NCBI GenBank assembly: GCA_964607415.1 | Contig: CAZSKK010000003.1 | Span: forward strand, 3,693-67,692 | Length of the DNA: 64,000 nt | Source: an uncultured Candidatus Saccharibacteria bacterium | Lineage (GTDB): Bacteria > Patescibacteriota > Dojkabacteria > J137 | Direction of reading: 5' to 3' | Part shown: positions 1,088-28,314 of the stretch, in pieces | How positions within the stretch are numbered: position 1 is the first letter of the stretch | Layout: each line of letters begins with the position of its first letter | Notes under the pieces: generated by a model | Told to the model about the DNA's origin: nothing | Seen by the model: only the letters and a program-made list of their open reading frames with translations | The model's database searches: none | Position numbers and translations under genes: made by a program

Positions 1088-1116
1088 TTGACAGTTCTCC
1101 TTTTCTGCATTACAAT
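1088..1116 (+). promoter_or_regulatory. Sigma70-like promoter (TTGACA-17-TACAAT) for the first XRE regulator gene
   Basis: TTGACA lies at 1088-1093, followed by a 17-nt spacer and TACAAT at 1111-1116. The ORF-track start at 1088 is the TTG of the -35 box and is spurious. Confidence 0.55.
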
Positions 1117-1147
1117 TCGTAGAATCCCCAACAAAAAGCACCACCAA

Positions 1148-7008: not shown

Positions 7009-7123
7009 AAAAAGCTTATTATTATTAAAACCTATCCCGATCCTTGATCCTCTCGGATCACCCTCTCCTAAAGGAAAGGAAATGAACGCAGTGAGCAGGG
7101 TGGTGGAAAACTTCTATTTTCTT

Positions 7124-7152
7124 TCAAAATTTGTATTGCAATACAATGCGGC
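7124..7152 (+). promoter_or_regulatory. Conserved upstream element, copy 1 (tcaaaatttgtattgcaatacaatgcggc). It contains the 16-bp perfect palindrome TTGTATTGCAATACAA at 7131-7146, overlapping a TACAAT -10-like hexamer.
   Basis: It matches copies at 14262-14290 and 15748-15776 almost exactly. Each copy sits 75-130 nt upstream of a secreted or envelope protein gene. Confidence 0.6.
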
Positions 7153-7201
7153 GAAAAATTTTTTACGCTATGATCAGTTATTTATTGATCATTTACCTCA
7201 T

Positions 7202-13200: not shown

Positions 13201-13630
13201 TACTGGTCAGCCTATTAATATATGTCATGATGGTGCATTTGGTCTTACAGGAGCATTTGTAAGTTGTTCAGAAAGTTCCAAAGAGGGCATGGAAGCTTAT
13301 ATCAAACTAATTGGATTAAAAAAAGATAGTGAAATATGGCATAACCCATATGATTTTGATCCTTCTTGGAATTTTGTAAAAAATTCGATTGATAATGGAC
13401 ATCCAGTTATAATAACTTATGGTTGGAAAGATAAATTATTTGGCCATATTACAGTCATAAAAGGTTATACAAGTGATATCGATGGTAAAAAATTTGTAAT
13501 GAACGATAGCTTTACAGATACAAGTGTTCATGGTGTAGAAAACGGTTATAACTTAGATGGGAATAATGCTCTATATTCTCTTTGGGAAAAAGGATGGGAG
13601 CCAGGATACCTAATCTCAGTCAGCAAATAA
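7202..13630 (+). CDS. Giant secreted cell-wall-active protein (about 2142 aa). It contains a signal peptide, a long Ig/beta-rich region, an SH3b domain, an M23 (LytM) metallopeptidase, about five LGFP repeats and a C-terminal papain-like C39-type cysteine peptidase.
   Basis: The signal-anchor is MKGLLKTTLVWISIYLILSPLLLIKPSIA. The SH3b-like block is GYVVRYACLDVLAGPQ...GWVPRSSIDHV. The M23 motifs are HNGVDYAA...GTPVFSIAEG and GNTGWSTGCHLHF. The LGFP-type repeats include YGGTCGNLGLPTTD, YGFPLGEMY, YGWPTSEVY, FGIPENNTD and LGLPENDTS. The C-terminal block is MCGAASIVMISSYLG...GHITVIKGY. The true start is probably the ATG at 7202, or possibly 7082. The ORF-track TTG start at 7001 and the frame through 7082 translate the conserved upstream motif. 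Confidence 0.8.
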   Translation: MKGLLKTTLVWISIYLILSPLLLIKPSIAETLQNIEVCFIALDINNQIKQNLPSDTNVQIDFYDNVHLQENTINTLSGNFATVSYTQASPANRDLIGNDGIYDGYCETRQFTVDATTEYAYTQARIFSPNDISVVGYNDQFDIQVQSIADVFTYSNEFFDDIIGNESARNINSDGHIIMDVNREYRHLITILKDNTPIITNQPPQIYLSLNGEAEYTNNAVVQTDLNIATTNVIQNIRFGPSEVSIASLNWANYSDFNGEYILPGSDSTGNKRLCIQVKDSLNQDSNIACDEIIFDNLPPIGSIFINNDEIETSNTNLNLSLNAIDPILEDDQNGIGGIQMRFSEDNSNWSVWEPYLATKTFQTTTNNGQAFVFVQFQDSLGNVSISYSDNILVDPNSTIGTLRINNDDAYTNTSLVNLTLNKIGNRTPLYVRFIQTSNGQVPSNPPNVYNPTDNLGGWTYWQNYSENKQWDHDHPEAGTGTDGYGKKSIYAQYMWSDNTVTEIFRDSIIYAPYYAIEYRSVDHSELITEPQNSTPDFSYEPFFPEYTLNNIPTSLNTQEEVIIKLNTKNNGTFSWQPNIVNITNFWEVINIAPEFQSLVQSSTRGNNATPASIINYNQETGTLSLTVKAPSYPGTYKLKLDAIHEGVAQFSQFNNPSPGFEITVTTNPNTPQPGSDEEPDTDFTGYYPSNPYSGQLHVITGYVRYAPPNQYNAPYMIVEADGSSAYWYINQYDIGQYLNQVISVPIVIDNPSILSYYVIGWDAIPISYPSSLTLRPGDTIPIEIRYQNAGYHIWPIGTTRLGVTQSANGTSLFYDGSWLSDGRINMANNNQVRYGDVASFRFNIHAPTNIAVGSYRQCFEPLVEMVTWIGGSGRDVCINITVTNQPTPPVNNIPPISPTPSGDTGYVVRYACLDVLAGPQAGFPVVVHINYGDAVTVIGEATVGATDWLQIRTGSGVEGWVPRSSIDHVNDPANISFNLNNTYIASYVCGSSLTVYSGPGAEYGVKQILPQWTSTYILTSYNGWQLITMPNNTTGWVNSRSQLCAGSPQVLGYSTNNGNYSGQTIYNGELISRPLNQGSYIVTQYFNSRHNGVDYAASCGTPVFSIAEGIVMIAQSGFSNTYNPNLTGAARIEAMNRVNYVMIAHKNGIMSIYAHLQDVNVTLGQHVQMGQKIGTVGNTGWSTGCHLHFSTRTPSGAYLDPESILSQQVNVDQLRAFNSVRSRENNSTSYLAVNNPNGVTHQYCGAWIKDYEYFLEPGETWRTYTNLIYNPSINKSLRLRGDIRLAYWNKYGGTCGNLGLPTTDDLWAAQYISNGTTTTGAYQKFDKGTIHSSGHGTYATTGTLDYIHTSGGGTGRYGFPLGEMYNTTERGMCQQFESGLLCERDAPDNRSDAEKAIDARAKALGSTGPSALINICGYPAKTYSNVITGEDGAIVYVNGKATYSYGGTYDTFDYFSDRCTRFGIWTNDPAVGGKGPYNTPGAYQDYQNGRIYWSWKHVGKFVFGTIKNRFETAGGTNSQYGWPTSEVYSVNENDVQTNCQNFEGSGVYRRICESTVPEDTPAQKAFYQLTGIRFSPSQIRMECGRETVNLANGVAIYDSNRNLARSITGNIFTAYNSNGGCTTFGIPENNTDSVWGAGNVTGFAQRFIRSGSPQVINDFYEYNNNVTILEGTPRNIFELHNGLGTNGFPVRYFIDSSLEDRGVCVQTTTSGNICERPIPEWSVLLRSRVEGENQTYDLSQISSICSNNDYKIHPLSNGIIYYDPIYHNTRIIRSNIFIYWNRADKGCAVLGLPENDTSFPISPQGTPGEAQRFYRDEKIFDIYWSQFGTIELEGAARNLYNNNGGLWNNGFPKNVFEDSVRGVCVETEDSTICQNEAADPGTCAEGQTWDPVSAQCLENKEYECRQLQMHKFTSSQNQVVCAKTLNISYFNQYLKDDGTYSEPSDGNKMCGAASIVMISSYLGKLPIKDKSTRIKDYMYKDEGQGIINGTQLASITNPYTGQPINICHDGAFGLTGAFVSCSESSKEGMEAYIKLIGLKKDSEIWHNPYDFDPSWNFVKNSIDNGHPVIITYGWKDKLFGHITVIKGYTSDIDGKKFVMNDSFTDTSVHGVENGYNLDGNNALYSLWEKGWEPGYLISVSK

Positions 13631-14240: not shown

Positions 14241-14261
14241 TTTATAAATATAAATTTTCCT

Positions 14262-14290
14262 TCAAAATTTGTATTGCAATATAATGCGGC
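14262..14290 (+). promoter_or_regulatory. Conserved upstream element, copy 2. Its palindrome has one mismatch (TTGTATTGCAATATAA), which creates a perfect TATAAT. Similarity to copy 3 extends to about 14335.
   Basis: The sequence is tcaaaatttgtattgcaatataatgcggccacaaagtaattttggtagacttactcaaatacttt. It is about 85% identical to copy 3 over roughly 70 nt. Confidence 0.6.
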
Positions 14291-14394
14291 CACAAAGTAA
14301 TTTTGGTAGACTTACTCAAATACTTTATAGCAATTGTGAGTTAAGCGCTAAAGCTAAAGCATTTATATTATTACATACGACTTATCAACTCTAT

Positions 14395-15672
14395 ATGAAA
14401 AAGCTATTTAACAAAATATTCTCAAAAGGACGAAAAAGAAAAAATTTCATTATTGCTATCCTACTAGTTACTATCTCAATAACAGCTTTAGGTTTGATCA
14501 CTTATAAAAAGGAAGTAATGGTTTACCATAAACTCGAAGGTTTTGCTGAAATGGAAAATTATTATGTGTTTGGATTTAAATTTAAATCAGAGAATAAGTT
14601 ACTTACGCCTAGCGAGGAAATAACAATATTAGATACGAATATTTTCTATAAAGGTAGTATATTAAGTCCAACCGATATTCCAGGGTTTCCTTACGTAGGC
14701 ATTTCAGAGACAAAATTAGATTTTTTCGAAACTAAAGTTAAAGATAGCTCAATTTTATTTTTGCCTCATCAAATTGACTCTCCATGCCCTAATGCTTATG
14801 TGGAAACTTTCCGTTATATAGTTTGCCAAACAGATGAGTACACTAAAATTTTTTCTATTTCTTCTCTCAAAAGCAAACCCATTACTAACCAAATTATTAG
14901 TGTGCACGGCAGAAGCCGTATAATGGATTATGTAATAACAGAATCCAAAGAATATTTTTTTATTCAGAACATAACAAAAAATGAAATCTGCCTTTTTCAA
15001 ACCAAAAAACAAGAAGAAGCTTATAGTAGTTGTACTGATGCAGAAGCTGAAATAGTGCCTAATAATGGTTCATCAGAATTGTACGTGTTTGATGTTAAGT
15101 ATTTTAACATTGAAGCTAAACAGGCGATTTTGTTAGGAGGCATACGTATTCGTGGGCTTTCTGATCTTTTTTTTGTAGACCTTAATTTAGATAGAGTTAT
15201 TAAATTCCCCGCGTTCTCAAATAATCTATGGTACGACAGATACTACATAGAATCTAATAATATTTTTGTGATTGCAGCAGATACTAATATTAGATATAAG
15301 TTGGTAAATAATAGTGAGTATGAAATGCAAAGTGATGAATTTGGCGCAGGTATAACTCTATATTGGAGTAATATTGCTACTAAAGCTTTAGTAGACAATA
15401 AGATAATCAATTTATATACTAATAGCACCTTACTAGATCTAAATAAATTTAAATGCAACGCAACTAGTCTAGGAGGCTTTGGCTCAAATAGAAACACTAT
15501 TATTGCAATCAGCTTTAATAATCAATGTAAATTTCACACAATGCTATTAGATCCTCACAAAAATTTCATAAAAAAGCTTGACATTGATACTACGGAAGAT
15601 AGATATAAATTTGTAAAACTGATAACCTTGAAAGATATCGGGTTTTTAAAACAAGAAAACTTCTATATGTAG
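14395..15672 (+). CDS. Hypothetical signal-anchored extracytoplasmic protein (about 425 aa)
   Basis: The start is placed at MKKLFNKIF...FIIAILLVTISITALGLI, which is an N-terminal TM helix. The ORF-track start at 14269 translates the upstream regulatory motif. There is no recognisable domain. Confidence 0.55.
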   Translation: MKKLFNKIFSKGRKRKNFIIAILLVTISITALGLITYKKEVMVYHKLEGFAEMENYYVFGFKFKSENKLLTPSEEITILDTNIFYKGSILSPTDIPGFPYVGISETKLDFFETKVKDSSILFLPHQIDSPCPNAYVETFRYIVCQTDEYTKIFSISSLKSKPITNQIISVHGRSRIMDYVITESKEYFFIQNITKNEICLFQTKKQEEAYSSCTDAEAEIVPNNGSSELYVFDVKYFNIEAKQAILLGGIRIRGLSDLFFVDLNLDRVIKFPAFSNNLWYDRYYIESNNIFVIAADTNIRYKLVNNSEYEMQSDEFGAGITLYWSNIATKALVDNKIINLYTNSTLLDLNKFKCNATSLGGFGSNRNTIIAISFNNQCKFHTMLLDPHKNFIKKLDIDTTEDRYKFVKLITLKDIGFLKQENFYM

Positions 15673-15747
15673 ACTAACAAGCTGAAAGTACCAAAATATT
15701 TATTCTAGCATGTATTAATTTAGCAACAAAAATTTCTTGATTTCCCT

Positions 15748-15776
15748 CAAAATTTGTATTGCAATACAATGCGGCC
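15748..15776 (+). promoter_or_regulatory. Conserved upstream element, copy 3, with the perfect palindrome TTGTATTGCAATACAA at 15755-15770. Similarity to copy 2 extends to about 15812.
   Basis: The sequence is tcaaaatttgtattgcaatacaatgcggcccaaaagtaattttggtagacttacccaaatacttt. Confidence 0.6.
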
Positions 15777-15903
15777 CAAAAGTAATTTTGGTAGACTTAC
15801 CCAAATACTTTGCGGAATAAACAAATTCGAATAAATAACTTCGAATTAATTTCCAACTTCAAATAGAAAATATTAAAAAATTTTACTTTTTTATTAATTC
15901 ATT

Positions 15904-16665
15904 ATGTCAAGAATACTACATTTGTTTCTTCAGCTTTCTTTGAAAGCTAAAGTTCTTATCTTATTTGCATCAAGCGCTTCTGTTGCTGTAACTGGAACTG
16001 GTGCCTACTTCGTAGCACAAAGTTTAACTACAAATAACGAACACGAGCAAGTTATTACAGAGGAAGTTAACACTAACGAAGCTTTAGACGTTCCATCTTA
16101 TCCTGTAGCTATTGAAGATAACAAAACTGAAGAAGTTGTTGCCGAAGTACCAGTAGAGCAACCTGCTACACAGCCAACATATATTCCTCCAATTCAACAA
16201 CAACCAACTCCAACCCCACAGCCTGCGCCTACACCAGAACCTGAACCTCCAACTGGTGAAGAACCAGAATCAATATTTGGAGGAACTTTTACTAGCAGTA
16301 ACTATCAATTCTCATTTTCTTATATGCCAAGCATGGGTACTGCCTCAAGTACATACGATCCCAATGCGATGACTAAACCAGAAACTATCACTTTTAGTTC
16401 TAGAGCTGGATCAGTATCCGTAAATCCCATGCCTTTTGGAATTGAAACGCCTCCTCCAATTGAAGAATATTCACTTAACGCTGCATCAGGACAAACATTT
16501 AACGTTAGAATTAACAATCGAAATGGAATAATATTCTATGAAGCAAGCTATGGTATATGGGATCAAGGCTCTGTTACAATAGTCCTTTCTGGATACCCTT
16601 CAGTAGAATATGCAAAAGCAGAAGCTAATTATATTATAACCAGCATGAATATAGGAGCAATTTAA
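15904..16665 (+). CDS. Secreted Pro/Thr-rich protein (253 aa)
   Basis: It has an N-terminal signal-anchor (LILFASSASVAVTGTGAYFVA). A low-complexity PTPTPQPAPTPEPEPP linker is followed by a globular C-terminal domain. Confidence 0.6.
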   Translation: MSRILHLFLQLSLKAKVLILFASSASVAVTGTGAYFVAQSLTTNNEHEQVITEEVNTNEALDVPSYPVAIEDNKTEEVVAEVPVEQPATQPTYIPPIQQQPTPTPQPAPTPEPEPPTGEEPESIFGGTFTSSNYQFSFSYMPSMGTASSTYDPNAMTKPETITFSSRAGSVSVNPMPFGIETPPPIEEYSLNAASGQTFNVRINNRNGIIFYEASYGIWDQGSVTIVLSGYPSVEYAKAEANYIITSMNIGAI

Positions 16666-18311: not shown

Positions 18312-18782
18312 ATGCAAGATAACACAATGTCATCCCCAACACCTTCCGTTTCCCAAAAATATAACATTTTAGTAGTTGAAGACGAACCAGATGCTAAAGA
18401 ATTATTTATAGAATTATTGGCTACAGTTCCAGAATATGAAGTTCAGGGTGCTAATGATGGAGAGGAAGCTTTACAAAAAGCTGGAACAACTAAATTTGAC
18501 CTTATCCTTTTAGACATTGTAATGCCTAGAAAGGATGGTATCGAAACTTTAGATGATATACTTAAAGATAAAGCTAAATATGGCAACCCTATAGTTATCA
18601 TGCTTACAAATATTGGTGGTGATCTTGCGATTGAAAAAGCTTTAGAAATGGGTGCTGCCGGTTATAAATTGAAAATTGATACAGATCCAGAAGAATTACT
18701 AAGATATGTTGATGAGATGTTGAAGAAAAAAGGTGCACTGGGAGCGCAAAGTGCAAGTACTTTACCTCCACTAGCTGCTTAG
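18312..18782 (+). CDS. Stand-alone response-regulator receiver (CheY-like REC domain only)
   Basis: ILVVEDEPD carries the acidic pocket. DLILLDIVMPRKDG carries the phospho-acceptor Asp. No output domain is present. Confidence 0.8.
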   Translation: MQDNTMSSPTPSVSQKYNILVVEDEPDAKELFIELLATVPEYEVQGANDGEEALQKAGTTKFDLILLDIVMPRKDGIETLDDILKDKAKYGNPIVIMLTNIGGDLAIEKALEMGAAGYKLKIDTDPEELLRYVDEMLKKKGALGAQSASTLPPLAA

Positions 18783-18838: not shown

Positions 18839-19282
18839 TTATCTAGGAACAGTCCCATCTTCGTTCAAGTCTAAATTTTCATTTTCAAGTATAAATAGAT
18901 CTAAAATTTTAGGATCTTCTTGAAAATCTCTTATTCTTCTTAGCACATTTCCGCTTGGAATAAGTTCTATATTTTCTTTATTAGTAATGCCTTCTTCTGC
19001 TGCAAGCAAAGTATAATTTTCAAAAAAAAGCTCAAGATCATCGTTAGAATTGATTTCATTTAAGTATATTATCGCTTTATCATCCTTTACTTCAATAGTG
19101 TAGTCAATATTTTCTTTAATATAACTTCTATTAATTTCTTCTACATTGCTTTGTCTAAACAGTCCTTCGCCTTTATAAAATAATATATTAATACCCACTA
19201 AAGTTATCACCAGAAGTACTAAAACTATGGTAATAATTCCAAAGTTAGACCTTAAATTTTTGAATCTATTCTTTTTATCCAT
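18839..19282 (-). CDS. Small membrane protein (148 aa). It is tightly coupled downstream of the giant hydrolase gene.
   Basis: The start is placed at MDKKNRF, 8 nt after the stop of the 1979-aa ORF. It has one TM helix (IITIVLVLLVITLVGINILFY). There is no recognisable domain. Confidence 0.5.
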   Translation of the reverse strand: MDKKNRFKNLRSNFGIITIVLVLLVITLVGINILFYKGEGLFRQSNVEEINRSYIKENIDYTIEVKDDKAIIYLNEINSNDDLELFFENYTLLAAEEGITNKENIELIPSGNVLRRIRDFQEDPKILDLFILENENLDLNEDGTVPR

Positions 19283-19289
19283 ATTTTTA

Positions 19290-22200
19290 TTAATTTGAGC
19301 TACAAACATATTTAGAATCAGGTGTTCCGTCAGAAACCCCATCATCATTAGTATCATTTACAATTTTACTATATTCCCTAAATACTAACTGACAGTAATC
19401 TCCAACTTCTCCACCATACTCCCAAATACAATCGCCATATAGAGAATGTCTTCCATAATAAGGTGCAGAAGCTATGTGCAAAGCACTAATCTTATAGTTA
19501 GGATTGAACAATCTTTCTCGTAGATTAATAATTGACTGCGTACCCGGATATTCATCCAACAAATCTTCCAATTGTTCGATAGTAATATCATAAAATCCAT
19601 TTTCGCCAGTCGCATCGTAAACTCTTTGCGTCCACTGTTCTTCAGTAAATACTTCCCCCTTTGGAATACCCAAATAATTTCTGCCATCTCTAGCAAGTTT
19701 AGTTCCACCTGCACACAAAGCGACTCCCAAAATTACTGCATCATCATGACTTAGGTCTTCCACAGTATTAAATGGTAACCCTAGTCCTTTAACACAGTAT
19801 AGAATTAAGTCGGCATCTGTTCTCATAATTCCGTCCCAACCTATTTGAGTAAATTGCATTGGACCTCTAGTTCCATATCCATTATCAGTCACATAGCTAA
19901 CATATGTCGGATCACCAGGTCTTTTATCTGCTTCTCCACGACTTTCTACATCTAAAATAGCTCGAATAACGTTACCAGTGATTCCAGGATAGTCTCTGCC
20001 TATTAAATCAGCAACTTCATCCAAAAGACATTGAATACTTGAAAAATTTTTATCCCCATCAACAATTGGATTACCATTTTCGTCGTATTTACATTCAGAA
20101 TTCAATTTAGCAGAAATAGTACTTGTCTGGGTTGTATCTTGGCTTGTCTTTTTACCATCAGTTACTGTTGTCCATTCAGGAGCTTCGCAAGCCTTGTCAT
20201 AACGACATGAATTAGTACTTCCACAGCCCAAAACATCTCCATACAAAACATACGGATTAATCTTTTGTCCATTGTAGGATGCATTAGTATGCAAGTGGGT
20301 TCCTTGGATACAAGGTGTCCACAAACCGTTAGGAACCTCATAAAGCCTAATAGTGTTTCCGTTAGCAGTCATAAATTTACCAGGCTTATCATAAGTAGTA
20401 ACATAATCAGACATAATCGAAGATGTTATTCTTAAGTGTAAAAATACATACTTAACACCACTCTTGCCTTGATAAATTATGTACCCTCCATTTGATCTCA
20501 TACCTAAGAGCTCTTCATCACTCATATTATCAATGATCTCAACTAAAGCAGCTCCATTAGATAGCTTTGAATTTAATTCCTTTAGTTGGCCCCTTATTGT
20601 TTCCGGTTTTGTACCAAGATTAGGACAAAAGTTGTTTTGACCTGCAACAATTTGTACAATTTCGCCAGCTTCAGGAGCATATAGATCACTATTGCCTCTT
20701 ACAGCACCTTTTGTATAAAGATCAAACGATAGTGAAGGCCTTGGATCTTGAGTTGTACTACAATAGTGTGTAAATCCACCTAAAGGCCCTTGATAACAAG
20801 CATCATTTTGGAGAGGACATGATGTTGCTCCAAAATCTAGCTTAGTTACATCACCATTAATTTGTTCTTCTGGTGGAACTTTGCATGAGTTGTCGCACAA
20901 TCCTTCTATTGTATAACCTTTACTGCATAAAAATTCACCCAGTTCATCTTTAAATCTATTATCCGACATATCTGTAATGCACGTTAACTCATCGTCAGGC
21001 TTTATCAAAGCTTCCGGGTTTAAAGCAAGGTCTGCCGAACTTGAAGCACCAACATTTCCTTGTGCCCCCAAAACAACATCACTTCTAACAAAACAACTAT
21101 TCCCAAAATTATCAAAGTCTTGATATCCCAAACCAGTTGCACCTTGCATATCGCAGCCTAAAGCTTTTGTAAATGATGCTATATTATTTTTATATTGACC
21201 TTCTTCGACTTCCATGTGCAAGTGAGGACCTTGTATTCCAATACATCCACCTTGGTTAGGATCTGTAACATCTAGATCTGAAAGCTTTGAAACTCTGGTA
21301 ATCTTTTGACCTGCTTTATAGGTATTGCCCTCCTGAACACTGTCATCAACCAGAACATGTAAGAACATCAGTTTTACTGTCTTACCATCAATCTTGCCTT
21401 GATAAAATATTCTTCCTCCAGCTTTTGTTCCATTATTACAATAGTTAAACTCATCTGCATTTTGAACTTCTACAATCTCACCATCAAAAGGAGCGATAAC
21501 GTTTTGATCTCCGCCATTGTAATTTGTATTAAATAAATCTACTGCATTTAATCCTTCATGCGATTCAACTCCAGGCCCTTTACCACAAAGTCCTGCTTCT
21601 ACAGGACAATAATACTGTGTGCTTGGTTGGTTTGACGAATCGGTGGTAGAATTTTGTACAGGATTTTCGTCAAATTTCCATTGCTCAACCTGATCACAAG
21701 TTACCACAGGAAAGCTTGTAGTAACACTTGCAAGCCCTGTTTCCAATACCTTTCTTCTTGTATTATTTGCTGCATTATTTTTACCATAGTTTGGATTATC
21801 AGTAAGTTTTTCTGCGCTAAAGGTAGAATCTTTTGTATAAGCAACGCTCATTTCTTGTAGTACATCTAGATATCCCAGCCAATCATAATATTGATATTCT
21901 GTTCTAGTTGGATTGGTTTTTGCTAGTAAAAACTCGTTGTTATAGATGTTGCTTGGAAGTTCGCAGGAATCTAAGTCTTGTGCATATTGATTTGGAATTA
22001 CATCTGGCAAGCCTCTATCATTTGATTCGGACAATGGCCTATTTGCATCTCGAACTTTTGAAGTTACCTCTGTTTTCCATGCAAGGTTTTCCCTAAAAAC
22101 CATCTTTAAACCTCTTTCACTCATTTGTGTTTGAAGCCTTTGGTACATTCTATACAAAGAATCATAGACTCCCGGAATATCATAATTTGGATTATTAGGC

Positions 22201-25200
22201 CACTTATCAGTTTTAATATAAATTTCATCTCCTCCTTGTTGGTTATATTTTAAACACTCTGCATATTCTGCTGGGATTGAACATTCACCCTTTTTAATTT
22301 TATCTAAAGTACAAAAACTAAAAGTTGATAAGTAACTTATATTAGGGCAGTAGAAAGAAATTCCATTAGCAATAATCGATTTATTTTCTATCTGGCAATC
22401 TAGCGCTGCTGCCTGATATTGTTCAGAATTAACTCCTCCAAGCTGACCTGGATAATCAACGCCAGCTAATACATCTTTTTCATTTTTCCTGTTTGCATAT
22501 TTTCTACAAACTTCGCCACCTGTTCCCGACCAAACTTGAGTTTTGTCCTGTACTTGAACTTCTGGCCCAATAATATAGTTTGATCTATTTTCAAGATAAA
22601 TAGTATCTTCACCACAAGTAGTTTTTCTATATTTAGAAGGAGTATTTTGTGGTAAATAATCTCTAAGCCCATCGATGATATCTGAAGCAACACCTTTATC
22701 CAAGCAAAAACCCAATGAGTCTATGCACAAAGCTTTTTCATCTTGCACAGTTTTACTAACATCATTCCAGGGTAAAGGATATATTGAACTACCTCCTTTT
22801 TGAGAAAAATTCTCTTCCCAGAAAGTTGTACCAAAAGGGTTGTCTTTAGAATTTAGTTCTTTAATTGTTTCCAATGTACTACTTCCTGGATTTAGGCTTG
22901 CCTTATCAGGAAGCCTTGCAAATTCCTGTGATGCTAGTATTAATTCTGCAGAACAGTTAATTGCTGATCCCAACCAAGGCATAGGATATGCTTTAGAAAG
23001 ATCTATGCTTGCTAATTGAGAGTCTATGTTATTAAAGTTGACTATACTTGCAGTGCCGCTAGAAATCAATGAATACAGACCTTCGTTTATTGGCTTATAG
23101 TTATCAATATGTACACCGTCGGAATATAAAAATGAATCTTTGTTTGATGCATTGTAGCTTACATTCAAATATTTAATAGAACTGCCGTTATCTAAGCTTT
23201 TCAAAAACTCATTAAAAGAATTGACTTTACTGTCAGAACAAAGTCCATCAGATCTCAATGGGATTGGAACAAAAATTATACTTTGGTTCTCAAGATTAGA
23301 AATTATATTATTGATATCTAACTTGAATCCTTCCAAATCAAAAGAGGGGCAGTCATTGGTACCTAACCAAATTACTACTGTTGTATTTGATGCAAGATCG
23401 GAAGGAATCGGATAACTGGCATCTGCAAAACCTCTTGCACTTGATCCAGCAATGGCAGCACTTCTGTTTACAGTTGTAAACCACTCTTGCGGTAGAAAAT
23501 CACCTCGTTCTGGACCAGGGGCCCCTTGGCTATCACTTATTACTGCTATAGGATTTGATAAGGCGGTTTTACCTGTATACAAGTTATCGATTCTAGAACT
23601 AGTAGTTACGCCTGTTGTTAGAATTCCAGCAAATTGATTTAATGCATCCACTTCTGAGTTCGCATAATACGATGCAACTTCTGCGCAAATTGGTGTAAAA
23701 GGCAAGGCTGATGTCCCTGCAGAACTATTACTTCCAAACTGTTTTATAGGTAGAGCAACTTCTACTGTTCCAATCATTTGCGTTGTGCAGTTATTATTTT
23801 CACACTTAACCTTTAATGCCGCTCCATTATCAATATTAAAAGTTCTGCTCTCCAGCTCTTCCCCACATGCACTTGCAGTTGAGCTTGTTGAATATTCCTT
23901 AGGATAAATACATGAGTCAAAATTACAATTTGCCCATGAAAAATCTTTAAATCCTGGCTTTTTCTGTACAGGACAATCACCAATTATTAGAGCATGCTCA
24001 CTTGGAGTCATTCCGTGCCTATCTTTCCAAACCAATTCATCATTTAAAGCTACACTCCCATTTTCGTTCAAAAACGATCTGAAAAATAATACACCTTCAA
24101 CATTGCCATCCTGACAGAATTTTGCAAAACTTTGAGTTTGTTCTTCAAGTGCTGCTTGTCTTCTTCCTTGATAGTTTTCAAAAAATGCACCAAACTCTGA
24201 AATAATAACAGGAATATCTTTTCCGTCAGCGTATTCTTTTAAAGTGTTTTCACCGTTTGTTTCAGCTCCGTTTACATAAAAATCATACGCACTAACACCC
24301 ACAGAAAGTTCATATGTGTTTCCTAGAAGGTAATCGTAGTATTCAGGATTAAAAATCCTACCACTATACAAATACTCCTTAACATCATTGTTAACAGCAT
24401 TCGTTAAGTTAAAAATTGCAGGAGCTAACAGCATATGCCCTGCATTAATTCCACTTGGACGTAGTCCCTGAAGTGCTTTGGCAACTTGATCGGTTTCATT
24501 CAAAAGAGCATCATAATTTAATCCTCCCACAAAGCCATTCATCTCAAGAGCTGGCTCTCCAGAGCCAGGTTCGTTTGGTCCAATTACCCCTAAAAAATAC
24601 TCATCCGGAGATGTCAATGAATGTACTTTTGTATAAAAATCAATAATTTGGTTTTGATCTTGAAAACTACAAAAACCAGCAGCACAAAGTCTTATTATTG
24701 GAAGCATTCCTAAAGCATTTGTTTGTTTAATAAACTGTGCAGCTGCTTCCTGAGAAGTTGGAGAGTTAGCTGTGACCATTCCTAGGTTATAACTCATTCC
24801 TAAATCAGAAGCATATTTCAAAATCTTTTCATTAAGCTCTGAATCGTATCCACCATCTAATACAATTGCCGTATTTGCACCTCCCATATTTCCTTCTAGC
24901 GATGGAAGTGCTAGTCTACTTAATTGTGAAGCAGTTTTAATTTCTGCTTTATTAGGGTCTATGATTTGACATCTATCATTTGATTCTAAAAGATTTCCTC
25001 CTCCGTCTAGTTGTTTTGCGAGTTTGCCAGTATTCAAACCAAAACCAGTAACTTGTGCCAGTACATCGCTAATAACTCCAAACGGTCTTACTCCTTTCCA
25101 GGTTGAAATATCGTTAATAAGTCCTATTGTTGCAAATATGAAAACGAAGCCGAGAAGGACTACAATTGCCGTTGGTGGACGAGAATTTGAATGATTGTTG

Positions 25201-25229
25201 TTTTTTGCGTTGGAAAGATTGTGATTCAA
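19290..25229 (-). CDS. Giant multidomain cell-wall hydrolase (1979 aa). It has an N-terminal TM anchor, a GH clan-A TIM-barrel glycosidase-like domain, an SGNH/GDSL esterase-like domain, two M23 metallopeptidase domains and a C-terminal lysozyme-like/SLT domain.
   Basis: The TM is IVVLLGFVFIFATIGLI. The GH-A acid/base and nucleophile motifs are VIGPNEPGSG and VIISEFGAF. The SGNH blocks are VIWLGTNDC and SDGVHIDN. The two M23 motif sets are CIGIQGPHLHMEVEEGQY and CIQGTHLHTNASYNGQKINPY. The SLT-like motif is ILDVESRGE...GTRGPMQFTQ. Confidence 0.75.
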   Translation of the reverse strand: MNHNLSNAKNNNHSNSRPPTAIVVLLGFVFIFATIGLINDISTWKGVRPFGVISDVLAQVTGFGLNTGKLAKQLDGGGNLLESNDRCQIIDPNKAEIKTASQLSRLALPSLEGNMGGANTAIVLDGGYDSELNEKILKYASDLGMSYNLGMVTANSPTSQEAAAQFIKQTNALGMLPIIRLCAAGFCSFQDQNQIIDFYTKVHSLTSPDEYFLGVIGPNEPGSGEPALEMNGFVGGLNYDALLNETDQVAKALQGLRPSGINAGHMLLAPAIFNLTNAVNNDVKEYLYSGRIFNPEYYDYLLGNTYELSVGVSAYDFYVNGAETNGENTLKEYADGKDIPVIISEFGAFFENYQGRRQAALEEQTQSFAKFCQDGNVEGVLFFRSFLNENGSVALNDELVWKDRHGMTPSEHALIIGDCPVQKKPGFKDFSWANCNFDSCIYPKEYSTSSTASACGEELESRTFNIDNGAALKVKCENNNCTTQMIGTVEVALPIKQFGSNSSAGTSALPFTPICAEVASYYANSEVDALNQFAGILTTGVTTSSRIDNLYTGKTALSNPIAVISDSQGAPGPERGDFLPQEWFTTVNRSAAIAGSSARGFADASYPIPSDLASNTTVVIWLGTNDCPSFDLEGFKLDINNIISNLENQSIIFVPIPLRSDGLCSDSKVNSFNEFLKSLDNGSSIKYLNVSYNASNKDSFLYSDGVHIDNYKPINEGLYSLISSGTASIVNFNNIDSQLASIDLSKAYPMPWLGSAINCSAELILASQEFARLPDKASLNPGSSTLETIKELNSKDNPFGTTFWEENFSQKGGSSIYPLPWNDVSKTVQDEKALCIDSLGFCLDKGVASDIIDGLRDYLPQNTPSKYRKTTCGEDTIYLENRSNYIIGPEVQVQDKTQVWSGTGGEVCRKYANRKNEKDVLAGVDYPGQLGGVNSEQYQAAALDCQIENKSIIANGISFYCPNISYLSTFSFCTLDKIKKGECSIPAEYAECLKYNQQGGDEIYIKTDKWPNNPNYDIPGVYDSLYRMYQRLQTQMSERGLKMVFRENLAWKTEVTSKVRDANRPLSESNDRGLPDVIPNQYAQDLDSCELPSNIYNNEFLLAKTNPTRTEYQYYDWLGYLDVLQEMSVAYTKDSTFSAEKLTDNPNYGKNNAANNTRRKVLETGLASVTTSFPVVTCDQVEQWKFDENPVQNSTTDSSNQPSTQYYCPVEAGLCGKGPGVESHEGLNAVDLFNTNYNGGDQNVIAPFDGEIVEVQNADEFNYCNNGTKAGGRIFYQGKIDGKTVKLMFLHVLVDDSVQEGNTYKAGQKITRVSKLSDLDVTDPNQGGCIGIQGPHLHMEVEEGQYKNNIASFTKALGCDMQGATGLGYQDFDNFGNSCFVRSDVVLGAQGNVGASSSADLALNPEALIKPDDELTCITDMSDNRFKDELGEFLCSKGYTIEGLCDNSCKVPPEEQINGDVTKLDFGATSCPLQNDACYQGPLGGFTHYCSTTQDPRPSLSFDLYTKGAVRGNSDLYAPEAGEIVQIVAGQNNFCPNLGTKPETIRGQLKELNSKLSNGAALVEIIDNMSDEELLGMRSNGGYIIYQGKSGVKYVFLHLRITSSIMSDYVTTYDKPGKFMTANGNTIRLYEVPNGLWTPCIQGTHLHTNASYNGQKINPYVLYGDVLGCGSTNSCRYDKACEAPEWTTVTDGKKTSQDTTQTSTISAKLNSECKYDENGNPIVDGDKNFSSIQCLLDEVADLIGRDYPGITGNVIRAILDVESRGEADKRPGDPTYVSYVTDNGYGTRGPMQFTQIGWDGIMRTDADLILYCVKGLGLPFNTVEDLSHDDAVILGVALCAGGTKLARDGRNYLGIPKGEVFTEEQWTQRVYDATGENGFYDITIEQLEDLLDEYPGTQSIINLRERLFNPNYKISALHIASAPYYGRHSLYGDCIWEYGGEVGDYCQLVFREYSKIVNDTNDDGVSDGTPDSKYVCSSN

Positions 25230-25839
25230 AGTGATTTTTATGTTAATTTGTTAATTAGTATAATGCTAATTGGTATAACGAATTAGCTAATTAACTGTCC
25301 ACTAATTAACGCTAATAAAGTTTTTAAAACTAATTTGTTCATTCTATGTGGTCGATAGTTGCTAGTGATAAGCAGTAAACTAGAATTTTCTTCAAAACTT
25401 ATGACGTCATTCCTGCGAAAGCAGGAATCTTCTTTATAACGGCATTGCTAGATTCCAGATCAATTACTGGAATGACTATTTCAGCTCATTTGCTCTATTG
25501 CTCTAAACCTCTACCGCTTTCTTTATTCTAAACCAGATCAATTTACTACTCAATAAAATTATGACTTTAGCACCAAAAAAACTTAGCAATCTGCCCGTGA
25601 GTCTGCTAAAATATAAACAATCAAAACTTAAAATATTGATACAATATAGTTGTGAAAACCATGTGAATGTGAGAATGTGCAAATATGAAAATAATGAATA
25701 GTTAATAGAGGTTTGGGTGTTGATGAGTTTGCGAGTTTAGGCTATTCGCTATATTCTATAAGCTATAATAAACTACTAACCATCGACTATTGACCAAAGC
25801 AAAATTATTACTTCAAACTAATAACTTAAAACTTTTTAT

Positions 25840-28314
25840 ATGAACATATCAGACCTTTTTTCAAACCGAACTCAAGAAGCGCTTCAAAGAGCAATCGGAG
25901 CTGCTATGGATAAAAAGCAAAGAGCTGCGGATACAGAACATATTCTGTATGGTCTTTGTGATGATGAAGTTGTAATGAACAGAGTTTTTAAAGAACTTGG
26001 TGTAAACATTAAAGAGCTAAAAACTACTCTTGATAAACAAATGAGCGAAGGTAACTTTGCTGGTGGGCAACCAGGCTTAACTCCCAGAGCTACTCAAGTT
26101 GTTCAGCTTGCATATCAAGAATCTTTGAATTTGAAACACAATTATATTGGCACAGAACATCTTTTCTTAGGACTAATTCTAGAAAGTGAAGGACTAGCAG
26201 CACAGATTTTAGAAAAATATGCAATCACGCATATCAAAGCAAGACAAGCAGTTGTAAAAGTTGTAGGAGAAGGAGATAAAGAAGGAAAAAAAGTTGGAGA
26301 AGAATCCGAAACACCAACTTTGGATCAATTTACAAAAGATTTAACTGAACTAGCACGTCAAGACAAAATCGATCCGGTTGTTGGCCGAGAAAAAGAAATT
26401 GAGCGAGTAATAGAAATTCTATCCCGTAGAAAAAAGAATAACCCAGTTTTAATAGGTGAGCCTGGTGTTGGGAAAACCGCAATTGCCGAAGGTCTTGCGC
26501 ATAGAATTATCAATGGTCAAATTCCAGAAGTTTTAAGAGACAAAAAAGTTAAAGCCCTTGATTTAAGTGCGTTAGTTGCGGGTTCAAAATTTAGAGGAGA
26601 ATTTGAAGAAAGAGCTAAAAAATTAATTGAAGAACTTAACAAAGTAGATAGGCAAATCATTTTATTTATTGACGAACTTCATACAATTGTGGGAAGTGGC
26701 GCTCAACAAGGCGAGCTTGATTTTTCAAATATGATTAAACCTGCCCTTGCACGTGGGGAACTTCAAGTAATTGGAGCTACAACGCTAAGCGAGTATCAAA
26801 AATACATAGAAAAAGACGCAGCACTTGAACGTAGATTTCAACCAGTTATTGTGGAAGAACCATCAGTTGAAAATACAGTCAAAATTCTAAAAGGAATTAA
26901 GGAACGATACGAAGCTCATCATAAGCTTAAAATTTCAGACGGTGCGTTAGATGCTGCAGCTCAGCTTTCGCATAGATATATTAAAAATAGATTTCTACCA
27001 GACAAAGCAATTGATGTGATTGACGAAGCTGCAAGTAGGGTAAGATTAAATTTCACAAGTGAGCCTGTTGAAATCAGAAACTTAAAAAATGAAATTTCTA
27101 AACTTGAAACTGAAAGAGAATCATTAACCAGAGGAGGCCAACACAAAGAAGCTGCTGAAATCAAAGTAAGAATTGAACAACTAAAAGAAGAATTACAACC
27201 GTTAGACTCTGAATGGGCTAAAAAAAGAGGTACAGGTACACCAGAAGTTAAAGTTTCTGATGTTAATGATGTAATTTCAAGAATGACTGGAGTTCCAATT
27301 ACTGAGCTAAATCTTGAAGAAAAAACAAGGCTAATAAACCTGGAACAAGAGTTACATAGTAGAGTAATAGGGCAGAGTGAAGCAGTTCATTTGGTAGCAC
27401 AAGCAATTAGAAGATCAAGAACTGGATTAAAAGATCCCAATAGACCTATTGCCTCATTTTTATTTTTAGGACCAACAGGAGTTGGAAAAACAGAGCTTGC
27501 AAAAGCACTTTCAGAAGTTATGTTTGGGTCCGAGGATGCAATGATTCGAATTGACATGAGTGAGTATATGGAAAAGTTTGCTGTTACTAGATTAATCGGC
27601 TCCCCTCCAGGATACGTTGGCTACGAAGAAGGGGGTCAACTAACCGAAAAAGTAAGACGCAAACCTTATAGCGTGATTCTTTTGGATGAACTTGAAAAGG
27701 CTCATCCGGATGTATTCAACATTCTTTTACAAGTACTGGATGATGGAAAACTAACGGACGGCAAAGGTCGAACTGTTGATTTTAAGAATACAATAATTAT
27801 TGCAACCAGCAACATTGGTTCAGATTTAATCCTTTCATCATTAGGTGCACAGCAAGTTGGGAAAATGCTTGATATGATTAGACCCAAAGAAGCTGATACA
27901 GGAATTATTAAAATGAAAGAGGCAAAAGAGCTAATTCCTAACTGGGAAGAAATAAAAACACAAGTTTTTAGTATGCTTAGAAATCATTTTAGGCCTGAAT
28001 TTATAAATAGACTTGACGAAATCATAATGTTTAAAGCACTTACCTTTTCAGAAGTTGAAAGAATTGTAAGGCTTGTTCTGGAAAAAACTAAAAAACTTTT
28101 ACAAGATCAAGAAATTGAAGTTGAGTTTGAAAATTCTGCTGTGGCCGAAATTGCAAGAAAAAGTTACAATCCACAATTTGGAGCAAGGCCTGTAAGGCGT
28201 GAAGTACAAAGGCAAATTGACAATCTTATTTCAGAAAAGATTTTAACAAACGAAATTAAAGCTGGAGATAAGATTAAGATAAGATTTACGAAAGGTAAAT
28301 TCGAAGTTATTTAA
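25840..28314 (+). CDS. clpC: ATP-dependent Clp protease ATP-binding subunit ClpC (two AAA+ modules with Clp_N repeats)
   Basis: Clp_N repeats are present. The Walker A motifs are GEPGVGKT and GPTGVGKT. A short middle coiled coil and the length of 824 aa favour ClpC over ClpB. Confidence 0.85.

What the first reader, a model, noticed from the sequence alone, without database searches (positions are those of the whole stretch)
18839..25229. A 1979-aa membrane-anchored enzyme carrying five hydrolase-type modules (GH clan-A, SGNH esterase, two M23 domains, SLT), plus a tightly coupled small membrane protein
The translation shows several motif sets:
- The NEP acid/base and SEFG nucleophile of clan GH-A glycosidases.
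- SGNH blocks (GTND, DGVHI).
- Two complete M23 motif sets (...HLHMEVEEG and ...GTHLHTNASYNG).
- A C-terminal E-S...G.MQ lysozyme-like/SLT motif.

Together these could cleave glycan strands, remove O-acetyl groups and cut peptide cross-links, so the protein carries a nearly complete murein-degradation toolkit. A 148-aa single-pass membrane protein starts 8 nt after its stop. It could be an immunity or chaperone partner, but that is speculative. The gene is divergent from clpC across a 610-bp structured leader.
Basis: partly seen in the sequence, partly recalled or inferred. Interest (0 to 1): 0.65.

Follow-up and report, generated by a model that had tools for sequence, protein, structure and literature searches.

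The report
Giant membrane-anchored multi-enzyme cell-wall hydrolase
A tiny-genome Dojkabacteria (CPR) bacterium encodes a 1979-residue membrane-anchored protein that strings together a sugar-cleaving barrel, an esterase, two metallopeptidase modules, a lysozyme-like module and a large unknown domain. The protein is always followed by a small membrane protein, so the pair is most likely a lineage-specific machine for cutting bacterial cell walls.

Summary
ORF 19290..25229 (-) encodes 1979 aa with one N-terminal TM helix and 50 cysteines. A 147-aa single-pass protein starts 7 nt after its stop.

Curated HMMs barely detect the domains: Pfam gives only sub-threshold M23 and GDSL_2 hits. Deeper tests support all five proposed modules:
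- **GH clan-A barrel:** the AF2 model shows eight β/α units, with NEP after β4 and E345 in β7. The top 50 Foldseek PDB hits are mainly GH5, GH1, GH26, GH164 and GH2 (best E=1e-6).
- **SGNH esterase:** all four blocks are conserved, and the profile matches PDB 1yzf at E=2e-8.
- **M23 copy 1:** hhalign gives 95% to canonical M23.
- **M23 copy 2:** hhalign gives 97% to copy 1. Both copies have unusual H…D spacing.
- **C-terminal GH23/SLT-like domain:** E-S, GPMQF and YYG are conserved. Fold hits are lytic transglycosylases, but with weak E-values.

The protein is a single-copy ortholog found only in Dojkabacteria-type MAGs, always divergent from clpC. Its core is conserved and its C-terminal lytic modules vary (VanY, NAGPA, Amidase_2, SLT). 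The small TM partner is conserved whatever the module type, which argues against an immunity role. The "structured leader" is not supported. Whether the target wall is the cell's own or a host's is unresolved.

The parts
19290..25229 (-). Giant gene, 1979 aa, TTG start
   Evidence: identical protein P0001 in NCBI/Logan
25110..25172 (-). N-terminal signal-anchor TM helix (aa ~20-40). The rest of the protein is predicted to be extracytoplasmic and contains 50 Cys.
   Evidence: Hydropathy scan. An N-terminal TM is also found in nearly all orthologs.
23955..25097 (-). N-domain aa 45-425: (β/α)8 barrel of clan GH-A type. N219-E220-P221 follow β4 and E345 lies in β7.
   Evidence: AF2 secondary structure. 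Foldseek PDB top hits are mainly GH5, GH1, GH26, GH164 and GH2, E down to 1.3e-6. NEP and EFG are at least 90% conserved. No significant sequence-HMM hit.
23595..23954 (-). Cys-rich β-rich module aa ~426-545 (SWANCNFDSC...PIKQFGSNS...LNQFAG), conserved in all homologs
   Evidence: conservation; β strands, pLDDT 70-92. No family hit.
23010..23552 (-). SGNH/GDSL esterase module aa ~560-740. Block I is S-D-S566, block II is G, block III is GTND623 and block V is D704-x-x-H707. It is an insertion present only in a subset of orthologs.
   Evidence: Blocks conserved in P0001-P0006. Pfam GDSL_2 E=2.9e-4, sub-threshold. 7 of 17 homologs hit GDSL_2, best 1.2e-9. Profile against PDB 1yzf E=2.1e-8.
21660..22994 (-). 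Central conserved domain aa ~746-1190 (YPMPWLGSAINC ... DERA ... GPE ... RDANR ... YYDWLGYLD). Fold and function are unknown. It is the best conserved part of the family.
   Evidence: 32 invariant columns. No Pfam, PHROG or PDB-profile hit. AF2 pLDDT is mostly 70-93 in its second half.
21180..21617 (-). M23 module 1, aa ~1205-1350: H1224...D1231, H1291, H1336-L-H1338
   Evidence: Pfam M23 E=2.1e-4, 21.8 bits, below the 28.7 cut-off. hhalign to canonical M23 95.4%, E=1.9e-8. H1291, H1336 and H1338 invariant.
20250..20981 (-). Cys-rich linker plus M23 module 2, aa ~1417-1660: H1488...D1504, a His in the FLHL motif aligned to H1291 of copy 1, and H1645-L-H1647, with a ~40-aa insertion. It is an internal duplication of the linker and M23 unit.
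   Evidence: Family HMM E=1.4e-21. hhalign to the module-1 type 97%, E=1.1e-10. DNA repeat 20451-20490 / 21381-21420. No direct Pfam or PDB hit.
19335..20096 (-). C-terminal GH23/SLT-like (lysozyme-like) domain, aa ~1712-1965: E1762-S, GDP, GPMQF1789, YYG
   Evidence: Homologs found only in other giants of this family. Invariant E, GDP, GPMQF, K, Y-G. AF2 core pLDDT 80-91. Foldseek hits: phi6 lysin, phiKZ gp144, MltF/C/E and phage LT_GEWL/SLT proteins. E-values are only 0.007-0.5.
18839..19282 (-). Coupled 147-aa single-pass membrane protein, starting 7 nt after the giant's stop
   Evidence: A positional ortholog with an N-terminal TM is present in 13 of 15 complete loci and in L004-L010. The family is connected by phmmer. 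The window copy is only marginally similar to the others.
25230..25839 (.). 610-bp divergent intergenic region shared with clpC
   Evidence: Not unusually structured. No Rfam family. The clpC divergence is conserved in 18 of 18 loci of the genome scan that yielded matches.
25840..28314 (+). clpC (824 aa), the conserved divergent neighbour
18312..18782 (+). Stand-alone receiver-domain response regulator, convergent on the small ORF. It is a frequent syntenic neighbour.

Best explanation
**Proposed mechanism.** The gene encodes a type-II membrane-anchored, disulfide-rich, extracytoplasmic multi-enzyme that dismantles cell-wall material.

Domain order from the N-terminus:
1. TM anchor
2. Clan GH-A retaining glycosidase
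3. Cys-rich β module
4. SGNH esterase
5. 445-aa domain of unknown fold
6. Two LytM/M23-type metallopeptidase modules
7. GH23-type muramidase or lytic transglycosylase

**Inferred division of labour:**
- The SGNH module removes O-acyl groups from the glycan.
- The GH23 module cuts MurNAc-GlcNAc bonds.
- The M23 modules cut peptide cross-links.
- The GH-A barrel cuts a β-glycan that is probably a wall-associated polymer rather than murein itself.

**Family pattern.** The protein is the Dojkabacteria-specific, single-copy ortholog of a family with a fixed core (TM, GH-A, central domain, M23). Its C-terminal lytic modules are swappable: VanY, NAGPA, Amidase_2, SLT, or an extra M23. It is co-transcribed with a conserved small single-pass membrane partner. 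That partner goes with the conserved core and probably helps with assembly, anchoring or control.

**Target.** I favour a non-self wall, meaning the host or neighbour cell of this presumed epibiont, or wall debris. That step is inference.

**Shown versus inferred.**
- Shown: the ORF, the topology signal, domain homologies and folds, motif conservation, synteny and partner conservation.
- Inferred: catalytic activity, substrates, target cell and partner role.
For: **Domains:**
- GH-A barrel.
- SGNH.
- M23 x2.
- GH23-like.

**Location outside the cytoplasm:** one N-terminal TM helix and 50 Cys, with a DsbD_2 gene in the window.

**Lineage-specific single-copy ortholog:**
- There are 20 loci in 20 Dojkabacteria-type MAGs.
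- clpC is divergent upstream in 18 of 18.

**Modular C-termini in the family:**
- Counts among 17 homologs: M23 in 13, GDSL_2 in 7, VanY in 3 and NAGPA in 2.
- P0019-P0022 combine VanY, M23, Amidase_2 and the SLT-like domain.
- The query-specific region aa 1400-1979 is shared only with P0002.

**Partner gene:**
- It starts within -25 to +19 nt of the giant's stop in 13 of 15 loci.
- It forms one family across giants with different C-terminal modules.

**Arguments for a non-self target:**
- Module shuffling suggests adaptation to different wall chemistries.
- A GH-A barrel, and NAGPA in relatives, are not known murein-remodelling activities.
- Published proposals hold that patescibacterial surface lytic enzymes compromise host envelopes (PMC11665869; PMC8080830).
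Against: - No enzymatic data exist.
- Curated HMM support in the query itself is sub-threshold or absent.
- GH23 fold-match E-values are weak (0.007-0.5), and that model has a mean pLDDT of only 66.
- Both M23 copies have non-canonical H...D spacing and could be degenerate LytM-like regulators.
- A membrane anchor, strict single-copy core-genome synteny next to clpC and gltX, and a Mur ligase in the window fit a housekeeping autolysin acting on the cell's own wall equally well.
- SGNH and GH23 modules do not consistently co-occur across orthologs.
- The largest conserved domain is unexplained.
Confidence: 0.5

Rival explanations
1. Self-directed autolysin. The membrane-anchored enzyme, together with its small TM partner, remodels the bacterium's own peptidoglycan during growth and daughter-cell separation. 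It may be controlled by the neighbouring receiver-domain protein or histidine kinase. The domain assignments are the same as in the best explanation, and only the target differs.
For: - The N-terminal TM anchor places the enzyme next to the cell's own wall.
- It is a single-copy, strictly syntenic ortholog beside clpC and gltX in every genome found.
- The genome makes its own murein (Mur ligase).
- A response regulator is adjacent in many loci.
- A HisKA_7TM kinase lies next to the second giant hydrolase and in L007.
Against: - Five or more lytic activities on one polypeptide is more typical of exolysins than of autolysins.
- C-terminal modules differ between related species, although their own wall chemistry is expected to be similar.
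- GH-A and NAGPA modules have no known role in murein turnover.
Confidence: 0.3
2. Largely non-catalytic surface adhesin or scaffold. Several modules, especially the two atypical M23 copies and the unknown central domain, bind wall ligands rather than cut them. This would resemble degenerate LytM domains such as EnvC and NlpD.
For: - The H...D spacing is non-canonical in both M23 copies.
- Pfam scores fall below the gathering cut-offs.
- CPR genomes are rich in giant surface proteins thought to mediate attachment (PMC8080830).
Against: - Catalytic residues of the GH-A (N, E, E), SGNH (S, G, N, D, H) and GH23 (E) modules are conserved across homologs at 20-45% identity.
- All four M23 metal or catalytic positions can still be aligned.
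Confidence: 0.1
3. Polymorphic toxin with a cognate immunity protein. The variable C-terminal lytic module is an antibacterial effector, and the small downstream protein protects the producer.
For: - The C-terminal modules vary on a conserved N-terminal core.
- A small gene follows immediately downstream.
Against: - The small proteins form one homologous family regardless of which C-terminal module the giant carries: VanY in L008, NAGPA/M23 in L007, M23 only in L009, SGNH type in L005.
- No secretion-system or recombination-hotspot genes were found in the window.
- The giant is membrane-anchored and single-copy, with no orphan module/immunity cassettes downstream.
Confidence: 0.05

Closest known systems
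Conjugation-associated multidomain peptidoglycan hydrolases of monoderms (PrgK of pCF10, TraG of pIP501, CwlT of ICEBs1; VirB1-like)
   Same: N-terminal membrane anchor. A glycan-cleaving SLT or muramidase module is combined with peptide-cleaving modules (LytM/M23, CHAP, NlpC/P60) on one polypeptide. (Own knowledge; cited in PMC12102498.)
   Different: - No T4SS genes lie nearby.
- This protein is much larger.
- It carries a GH-A barrel, an SGNH esterase and a 445-aa unknown domain.
- It is a core-genome syntenic ortholog beside clpC rather than part of a mobile element.
Family-1 lytic transglycosylases / GH23 (Slt70, MltE, MltC, MltF; phage phi6 P5, phiKZ gp144)
   Same: The C-terminal domain has a helical lysozyme-like model whose best fold matches are these proteins. 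It has a Glu-Ser at a helix end, a G-x-M-Q motif and a Y-x-G motif.
   Different: - There is no sequence-HMM match to SLT families.
- The motifs are variants: GPMQF instead of GLMQ, and RYYGA instead of AYNxG.
- Detectable sequence relatives occur only inside this giant family.
Clan GH-A glycoside hydrolases (GH5 subfamilies, e.g. GH5_18; also GH1, GH26, GH164)
   Same: Predicted (β/α)8 barrel, Asn-Glu-Pro after β4, Glu in β7, plus a conserved Arg (PIIRLC) and Tyr (GNTY).
   Different: - TM-scores are only 0.4-0.55, with rmsd 6-9 Å and 9-14% identity.
- There is no significant HMM hit to any GH family. The best are an endoglucanase (PDB 8bqa) at E=0.34 and Pfam Cellulase at E=0.06 in a homolog.
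- It is therefore a candidate new family, and the substrate is unknown.
SGNH O-acetyl esterases (e.g. peptidoglycan O-acetylesterase Ape1, CE2/CE3 esterases, TesA-type SGNH hydrolases)
   Same: All four SGNH blocks are present, and the profile match to solved SGNH hydrolases is significant.
   Different: - The nearest solved relatives are generic lipase/acylhydrolases, so specificity for O-acetyl-MurNAc is not shown.
- Block I is SDS rather than GDS in the query.
- The module is an insertion present in only some orthologs.
LytM/lysostaphin-type M23 peptidases, and modular lysins such as phi29 gp13 (lysozyme plus M23)
   Same: The H...D, H and HxH residues can be aligned in both copies. There is profile-level homology to canonical M23. 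The pairing with a lysozyme-like module matches that in tail lysins (own knowledge).
   Different: - The H-x6-D and H-x15-D spacing replaces HxxxD.
- There is an extra Cys-containing loop, and copy 2 has a 40-aa insertion.
- Pfam scores are below the gathering cut-off or absent.

Membership tests
Clan GH-A (4/7 superfamily) glycoside hydrolase | (β/α)8 TIM-barrel fold | tested here: met
   AF2 model (22-sequence alignment, pLDDT ~80 in this region) shows eight alternating β/α units. The Foldseek PDB top-50 hits are mainly clan GH-A barrels, prob 1.00, E 1e-6 to 3e-4.
Clan GH-A (4/7 superfamily) glycoside hydrolase | Acid/base Glu in an Asn-Glu motif at the C-terminal end of β4, and nucleophile Glu at the end of β7 | tested here: met
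   N219-E220-P221 follow model strand 168-171 (aa 212-215). E345 lies in model strand 297-304 (aa 341-348). Both are at least 90% conserved in 22 homologs.
Clan GH-A (4/7 superfamily) glycoside hydrolase | Sequence membership of a named CAZy/Pfam GH family | tested here: not met
   There is no GH-family Pfam hit on the query N-domain. The profile against PDB gives at best E=0.34 to an endoglucanase. A homolog gives Pfam Cellulase at E=0.06.
Clan GH-A (4/7 superfamily) glycoside hydrolase | Glycosidase activity with retention of configuration | not testable with these tools
   Needs enzyme assays.
SGNH/GDSL hydrolase | Conserved blocks I (GDS, Ser nucleophile), II (Gly), III (GxND) and V (DxxH) | tested here: met
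   S-D-S566, A-G-S, G-T-N-D 623-626 and D704-G-V-H707 are invariant or conserved in 7 family members.
SGNH/GDSL hydrolase | Significant profile match to the family | tested here: met
   Family-segment profile against PDB SGNH hydrolase 1yzf gives E=2.1e-8 over the whole domain. Pfam GDSL_2 on the query alone is sub-threshold at 21.8 bits, below the 32.9 cut-off. The best homolog gives 1.2e-9.
Peptidase M23 (LytM/lysostaphin type) | Profile match at or above the Pfam gathering score | tested here: not met
   Copy 1 scores 21.8 bits, below the 28.7 cut-off. Copy 2 has no hit. Indirect evidence: hhalign of the copy-1 type against canonical M23 gives 95.4%, and copy 2 against the copy-1 type gives 97%. 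13 of 17 homologs hit M23, best 1.7e-32.
Peptidase M23 (LytM/lysostaphin type) | Zn and catalytic residues: HxxxD, a central His, and HxH | tested here: inconclusive
   HxH (1336/1338 and 1645/1647) and the central His (H1291 in copy 1, and the His of the FLHL motif in copy 2) are present in both copies. The first motif has H-x6-D in copy 1 and H-x15-D in copy 2 instead of HxxxD.
GH23 / family-1 lytic transglycosylase (SLT) | Lysozyme-like helical fold | tested here: met
   The AF2 model has pTM 0.71 and core pLDDT 80-91. Best PDB matches are phi6 lysin, phiKZ gp144 and MltF/C/E (prob 0.99 and 0.91, but E 0.04-0.5). Best BFVD matches are LT_GEWL/SLT proteins (best E 6.5e-3). The matches are coherent but statistically weak.
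GH23 / family-1 lytic transglycosylase (SLT) | Catalytic Glu (E-S motif) at a helix end, plus GLMQ and AYNxG-type motifs | tested here: met
   E1762-S lies at the end of model helix 41-51. GPMQF and (R/P)YYG(A/R) are present. E, GPMQF, Y and G are invariant in 8 sequences.
GH23 / family-1 lytic transglycosylase (SLT) | Sequence-profile match to SLT families | tested here: not met
   There is no Pfam, NCBIfam, PHROG or PDB-profile hit.
Polymorphic toxin / immunity pair | The downstream small protein co-varies with the C-terminal toxin module | tested here: not met
   The small proteins are one family across giants with different C-terminal modules.
T4SS-associated VirB1/PrgK-type hydrolase | Encoded within a type IV secretion or conjugation gene cluster | tested here: not met
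   Neighbours are clpC, a response regulator, gltX and other housekeeping genes. Pfam scans of the ORFs tested (those of at least 110 aa up to 16.7 kb, then the larger ORFs from 33 kb on) found no VirB4, VirD4 or relaxase hits.

The most novel reading that the evidence does not exclude
The conserved core (TM anchor, new GH-A family, 445-aa orphan domain, variant M23) together with its small membrane partner may form a previously undescribed Dojkabacteria-wide surface machine for breaching host cell envelopes. In this reading the orphan central domain is a new catalytic fold. The interchangeable C-terminal lytic cassettes (SLT, VanY, NAGPA, Amidase_2, an extra M23) would tune each species to the wall chemistry of its host.
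Probability: 0.2. Interest if true: 0.75.

Novelty: new variant of a known kind. Interest (0 to 1): 0.5.

Why it matters
How CPR/Patescibacteria obtain nutrients from other cells is largely unknown, and surface lytic enzymes are prime suspects. This family could matter for several reasons:
- It is a universal, single-copy, very large investment for a genome of under 1 Mb.
- It offers a concrete, testable candidate.
- It contains a candidate new clan GH-A family.
- It contains a divergent GH23 subfamily and an atypical M23 subtype.
- It contains a 445-aa conserved domain with no detectable relatives.

If the modules are active, they could also serve as a source of new lysins.

Tried and rejected
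**Searches with no significant hit:**
- Pfam, NCBIfam and PHROGs on the whole protein and on six segments gave only sub-threshold M23, GDSL_2 and one PHROG peptidase hit.
- phmmer or profile searches against PDB gave nothing significant for the whole protein, N-domain, central domain, M23-2 or C-terminal domain.

**Tool problems:**
- The search for homologous proteins with the C-terminal 580 aa, and with the C-terminal alignment, returned no hits, not even the query's own record. I treat this as a tool limitation, not evidence.
The central domain therefore could not be fold-searched on its own.

**Ideas rejected or not supported:**
- Structured leader or riboswitch: z=-1.0, and there were no Rfam hits.
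- DGR target: a bAvd-like gene is nearby, but no template/variable repeat pair involves this gene.
- Phage origin: no relatives in IMG/VR.
- T4SS hydrolase: no T4SS genes were found.
- Immunity protein: see the rival explanations.

Full report

Yes. The ORF listing gives a 1979-aa ORF at 19290..25229 on the minus strand with a TTG start (translation). The identical protein (P0001) is present in NCBI and Logan assemblies, and one of the contigs that carry it recurs in 16 samples. It is therefore not an assembly artefact.

A hydropathy scan finds a single TM-like helix at aa ~20-40 and counts 50 cysteines.

The small ORF starts at ATG 19282, 7 nt after the TAG. It encodes 147 aa with one TM helix. 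The longer 172-aa reading from an upstream ATG is not supported by the orthologs, which all begin just before the TM helix.

clpC (824 aa, 25840..28314, +) is divergent across 610 bp. That leader is not unusually structured: z=-1.02, with 3 of 20 shuffles folding as well. It has no Rfam match. No terminator-like site separates the giant from the small ORF.

**2. What organism and family?**

The window has ~34% G+C. Named homologs are from Candidatus Dojkabacteria, a CPR/Patescibacteria lineage.

A scan of one genome per species with the central-domain profile found 20 loci. All were in Dojkabacteria-type MAGs, each on a contig of a different MAG. IMG/VR had none.

Seventeen homologs of 1369-2402 aa were found by word-indexed search. 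Six more giants of 1548-1981 aa, plus one 687-aa protein, came from the exhaustive search with the C-terminal domain.

**3. Domain anatomy**

Alignment of the 17 homologs shows a conserved core:
- N-domain, aa ~45-425
- Cys-rich segment, aa 426-545
- central domain, aa ~746-1190
- an M23 module

The segment aa 560-745 is an insertion present only in P0002-P0006. P0021 has a GDSL_2 hit at a comparable position. Everything after aa ~1400 is shared only with the 79%-identical P0002.

*(a) N-domain.*
- No GH-family Pfam hit appears on this segment.
- A 13-sequence profile gives only sub-significant PDB hits: an endoglucanase (8bqa) at E=0.34 and β-glucuronidases at ~1.5.
- One homolog has a weak Pfam Cellulase hit at E=0.06.
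- The AF2 model of aa 45-1200 (22 sequences, mean pLDDT 75) shows eight alternating β/α units. N219-E220-P221 lie just after strand 4, and E345 lies inside strand 7.
- Foldseek against the PDB returns mainly clan GH-A barrels in its top 50: GH5_18, GH5 mannanases and cellulases, GH1, GH164, GH26, GH2 and GH30. All have probability 1.00 and E from 1.3e-6.
- NEP and EFG are at least 90% conserved.
- The clan-A reading is therefore supported, but the domain belongs to no recognisable GH family and its substrate is unknown. I know of no clan GH-A enzyme that cleaves murein glycan, so counting it as a murein glycan cutter is not justified.

*(b) SGNH.*
- Blocks I (S/G-D-S), II (G), III (GTND) and V (D-x-x-H) are conserved in all seven members that have the insertion.
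- The query alone scores below the Pfam cut-off.
- The family-segment profile matches the solved SGNH hydrolase 1yzf at E=2.1e-8 across the whole domain.

*(c) M23.*
- Copy 1 (aa ~1205-1350) gets Pfam M23 at E=2e-4, below the gathering score.
- A family HMM built on this region hits the query twice. The second hit (aa 1419-1537, E=1.4e-21) includes the Cys-rich linker that precedes M23 in other orthologs.
- A 40-nt DNA repeat (20451-20490 and 21381-21420) marks the duplication.
- hhalign gives 95.4% (E=1.9e-8) for the copy-1 subtype against canonical M23. It gives 97% (E=1.1e-10) for copy 2 against the copy-1 subtype. Copy 2 against canonical M23 directly is not significant.
- All four metal or catalytic positions can be aligned, but the first motif is H-x6-D in copy 1 and H-x15-D in copy 2 instead of HxxxD. 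Copy 2 also carries a ~40-aa insertion. Activity is therefore plausible but not assured.

*(d) C-terminal domain (aa ~1712-1965).*
- No HMM or PDB-sequence hit appears.
- The exhaustive search finds it only at or near the C-termini of other giants of this family.
- The eight-sequence alignment has an invariant Glu (followed by Ser or Thr), GDP, GPMQF, a Lys, and Y-x-G.
- The AF2 model (pTM 0.71, core pLDDT 80-91) is helical, with the Glu at the end of helix 41-51.
- The best PDB fold matches are phi6 lysin, phiKZ gp144, MltF, MltC, MltE, GH124 and Tse3.
- The best viral matches are almost all LT_GEWL, SLT or lytic transglycosylase proteins.
- E-values are weak (0.007-0.5), but the matches agree with each other and with the motifs. 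I accept a GH23-like lysozyme or lytic-transglycosylase fold. These data cannot distinguish hydrolase from lytic transglycosylase.

- The Cys-rich β module (aa 426-545) was not noted.
- The 445-aa central domain has 32 invariant columns in 15 sequences, including several acidic residues.
- It has no relatives detectable by Pfam, PHROGs or a PDB profile.
- It could not be fold-searched separately.

**4. Context**

- clpC is divergent upstream in all 18 loci of the genome scan that gave matches. In the loci fetched by protein look-up it is adjacent in most, while in two of them other genes intervene.
- The receiver-only response regulator and gltX follow downstream in 6 of the 7 relatives' loci fetched by protein look-up. 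They also follow in 8 loci of the scan.
- No T4SS, phage or toxin-system genes are present among the window ORFs tested. Neighbours are housekeeping genes, including a Mur ligase.

**5. The small partner**

- An ORF of mostly 131-157 aa (230-272 aa in three loci) starts within -25 to +19 nt of the giant's stop in 13 of 15 loci with a complete gene end. All but one of these have an N-terminal TM helix. The same holds in L004-L010.
- Eighteen such proteins form one phmmer-connected family, many pairs with E<1e-10.
- The window's copy and its close relative are divergent. They score 12.5 bits against a profile of the others, a score reached by 1 of 200 shuffles.
- Membership for the window copy therefore rests mainly on position, size and topology.
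- The family is the same next to giants with VanY, NAGPA/M23, M23-only or SGNH-type architectures. This argues against a module-specific immunity protein. It favours a partner of the conserved core.

**6. Mechanism**

Shown:
- the membrane-anchor signal and a Cys-rich ectodomain
- four kinds of hydrolase module with conserved catalytic residues
- a conserved core with variable C-terminal lytic modules across the family: M23 in 13 of 17, GDSL_2 in 7, VanY in 3, NAGPA in 2, plus Amidase_2 and the SLT-like domain in others
- tight coupling to the partner gene

Inferred:
- The enzyme sits in the cytoplasmic membrane with its modules outside and degrades cell-wall material.
- The esterase de-acylates glycan. 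Established knowledge is that O-acetylation of MurNAc C6 blocks lytic transglycosylases.
- The GH23 module cuts glycan strands.
- The M23 modules cut cross-links.
- The GH-A barrel attacks an associated β-glycan.

Whether the substrate is the cell's own wall or that of a host or neighbour cannot be decided from sequence. I give about 0.5 to non-self, based on module shuffling, non-murein glycosidase modules and the CPR epibiotic lifestyle (PMC11665869; PMC8080830). I give about 0.3 to self, based on the membrane anchor and the core-genome single-copy synteny.

**7. Comparison and novelty**

Multidomain wall hydrolases are well known. Examples are PrgK, TraG and CwlT of monoderm conjugation systems, phage tail lysins and staphylococcal autolysins.

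This protein differs from those in several ways:
- its size and its genomic setting
- a GH-A barrel that fits no existing family
- a GH23-like subfamily and an M23 subtype invisible to curated HMMs
- a large orphan domain
- a dedicated small membrane partner

Public records call the family 'hypothetical protein' or name it after a single module. My three literature searches did not turn up a description of it. I rate it a new variant of a known kind, of moderate interest.

Noticed in passing
window 4729-13630 (+): A second giant wall-hydrolase gene (7001..13630, 2209 aa) carries SH3_3, a canonical M23 (E=1.4e-24), LGFP and Peptidase_C39_2. It overlaps by 8 nt the end of a HisKA_7TM histidine kinase gene (4729..7008). 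It shares only the M23 module with the giant studied here.
   Followed up: partly
window 7118-7188, 14256-14326, 15741-15811: A 71-nt direct repeat (70-93% identical) contains a TTGTATTGCAATAyAAT promoter-like core. One copy straddles the start of ORF 14269..15672 and one lies upstream of ORF 15904..16665, both of unknown function. A third lies inside the start of the second giant gene. It may be a shared regulatory element.
   Followed up: no
window 18312-18782 (+); L007 12669-14930: A receiver-only response regulator is convergent on the small partner gene in most orthologous loci. A HisKA_7TM kinase lies close by in L007 and next to the other giant in this window. This hints at two-component control of the giant hydrolases.
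   Followed up: partly
window 29557-29910 (-): A 117-aa protein has 23S_rRNA_IVP and weak bAvd Pfam hits (precomputed). No reverse transcriptase or template/variable repeat pair was seen nearby.
   Followed up: partly
window 1088-3424: Three adjacent XRE-type HTH_3 regulator genes. The first two share a 151-nt direct repeat at 75% identity (1773-1923 and 2540-2690). One of the three has an MmyB-like ligand-binding domain.
   Followed up: no
L011 (AP024679.1, complete Dojkabacteria genome) 6393-12000; L029 6366-10983: In these two genomes the orthologous giant is interrupted: a 993-aa ORF followed by a gap, and 848-aa plus 723-aa overlapping ORFs. This could be a frameshift, a pseudogene or a sequencing error.
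   Followed up: no
proteins P0017, P0023, P0016: Two distant family members carry a second, weak N-domain-like segment at aa ~860-1030. P0016 has a ~300-aa insertion that splits the N-domain. P0017 lacks the NEP and EFG catalytic motifs.
   Followed up: no
tool behaviour: the search for homologous proteins returned no hit at all for the C-terminal 580 aa or for its alignment, not even the query's own database record. The exhaustive representative search did find 8 relatives.
   Followed up: partly
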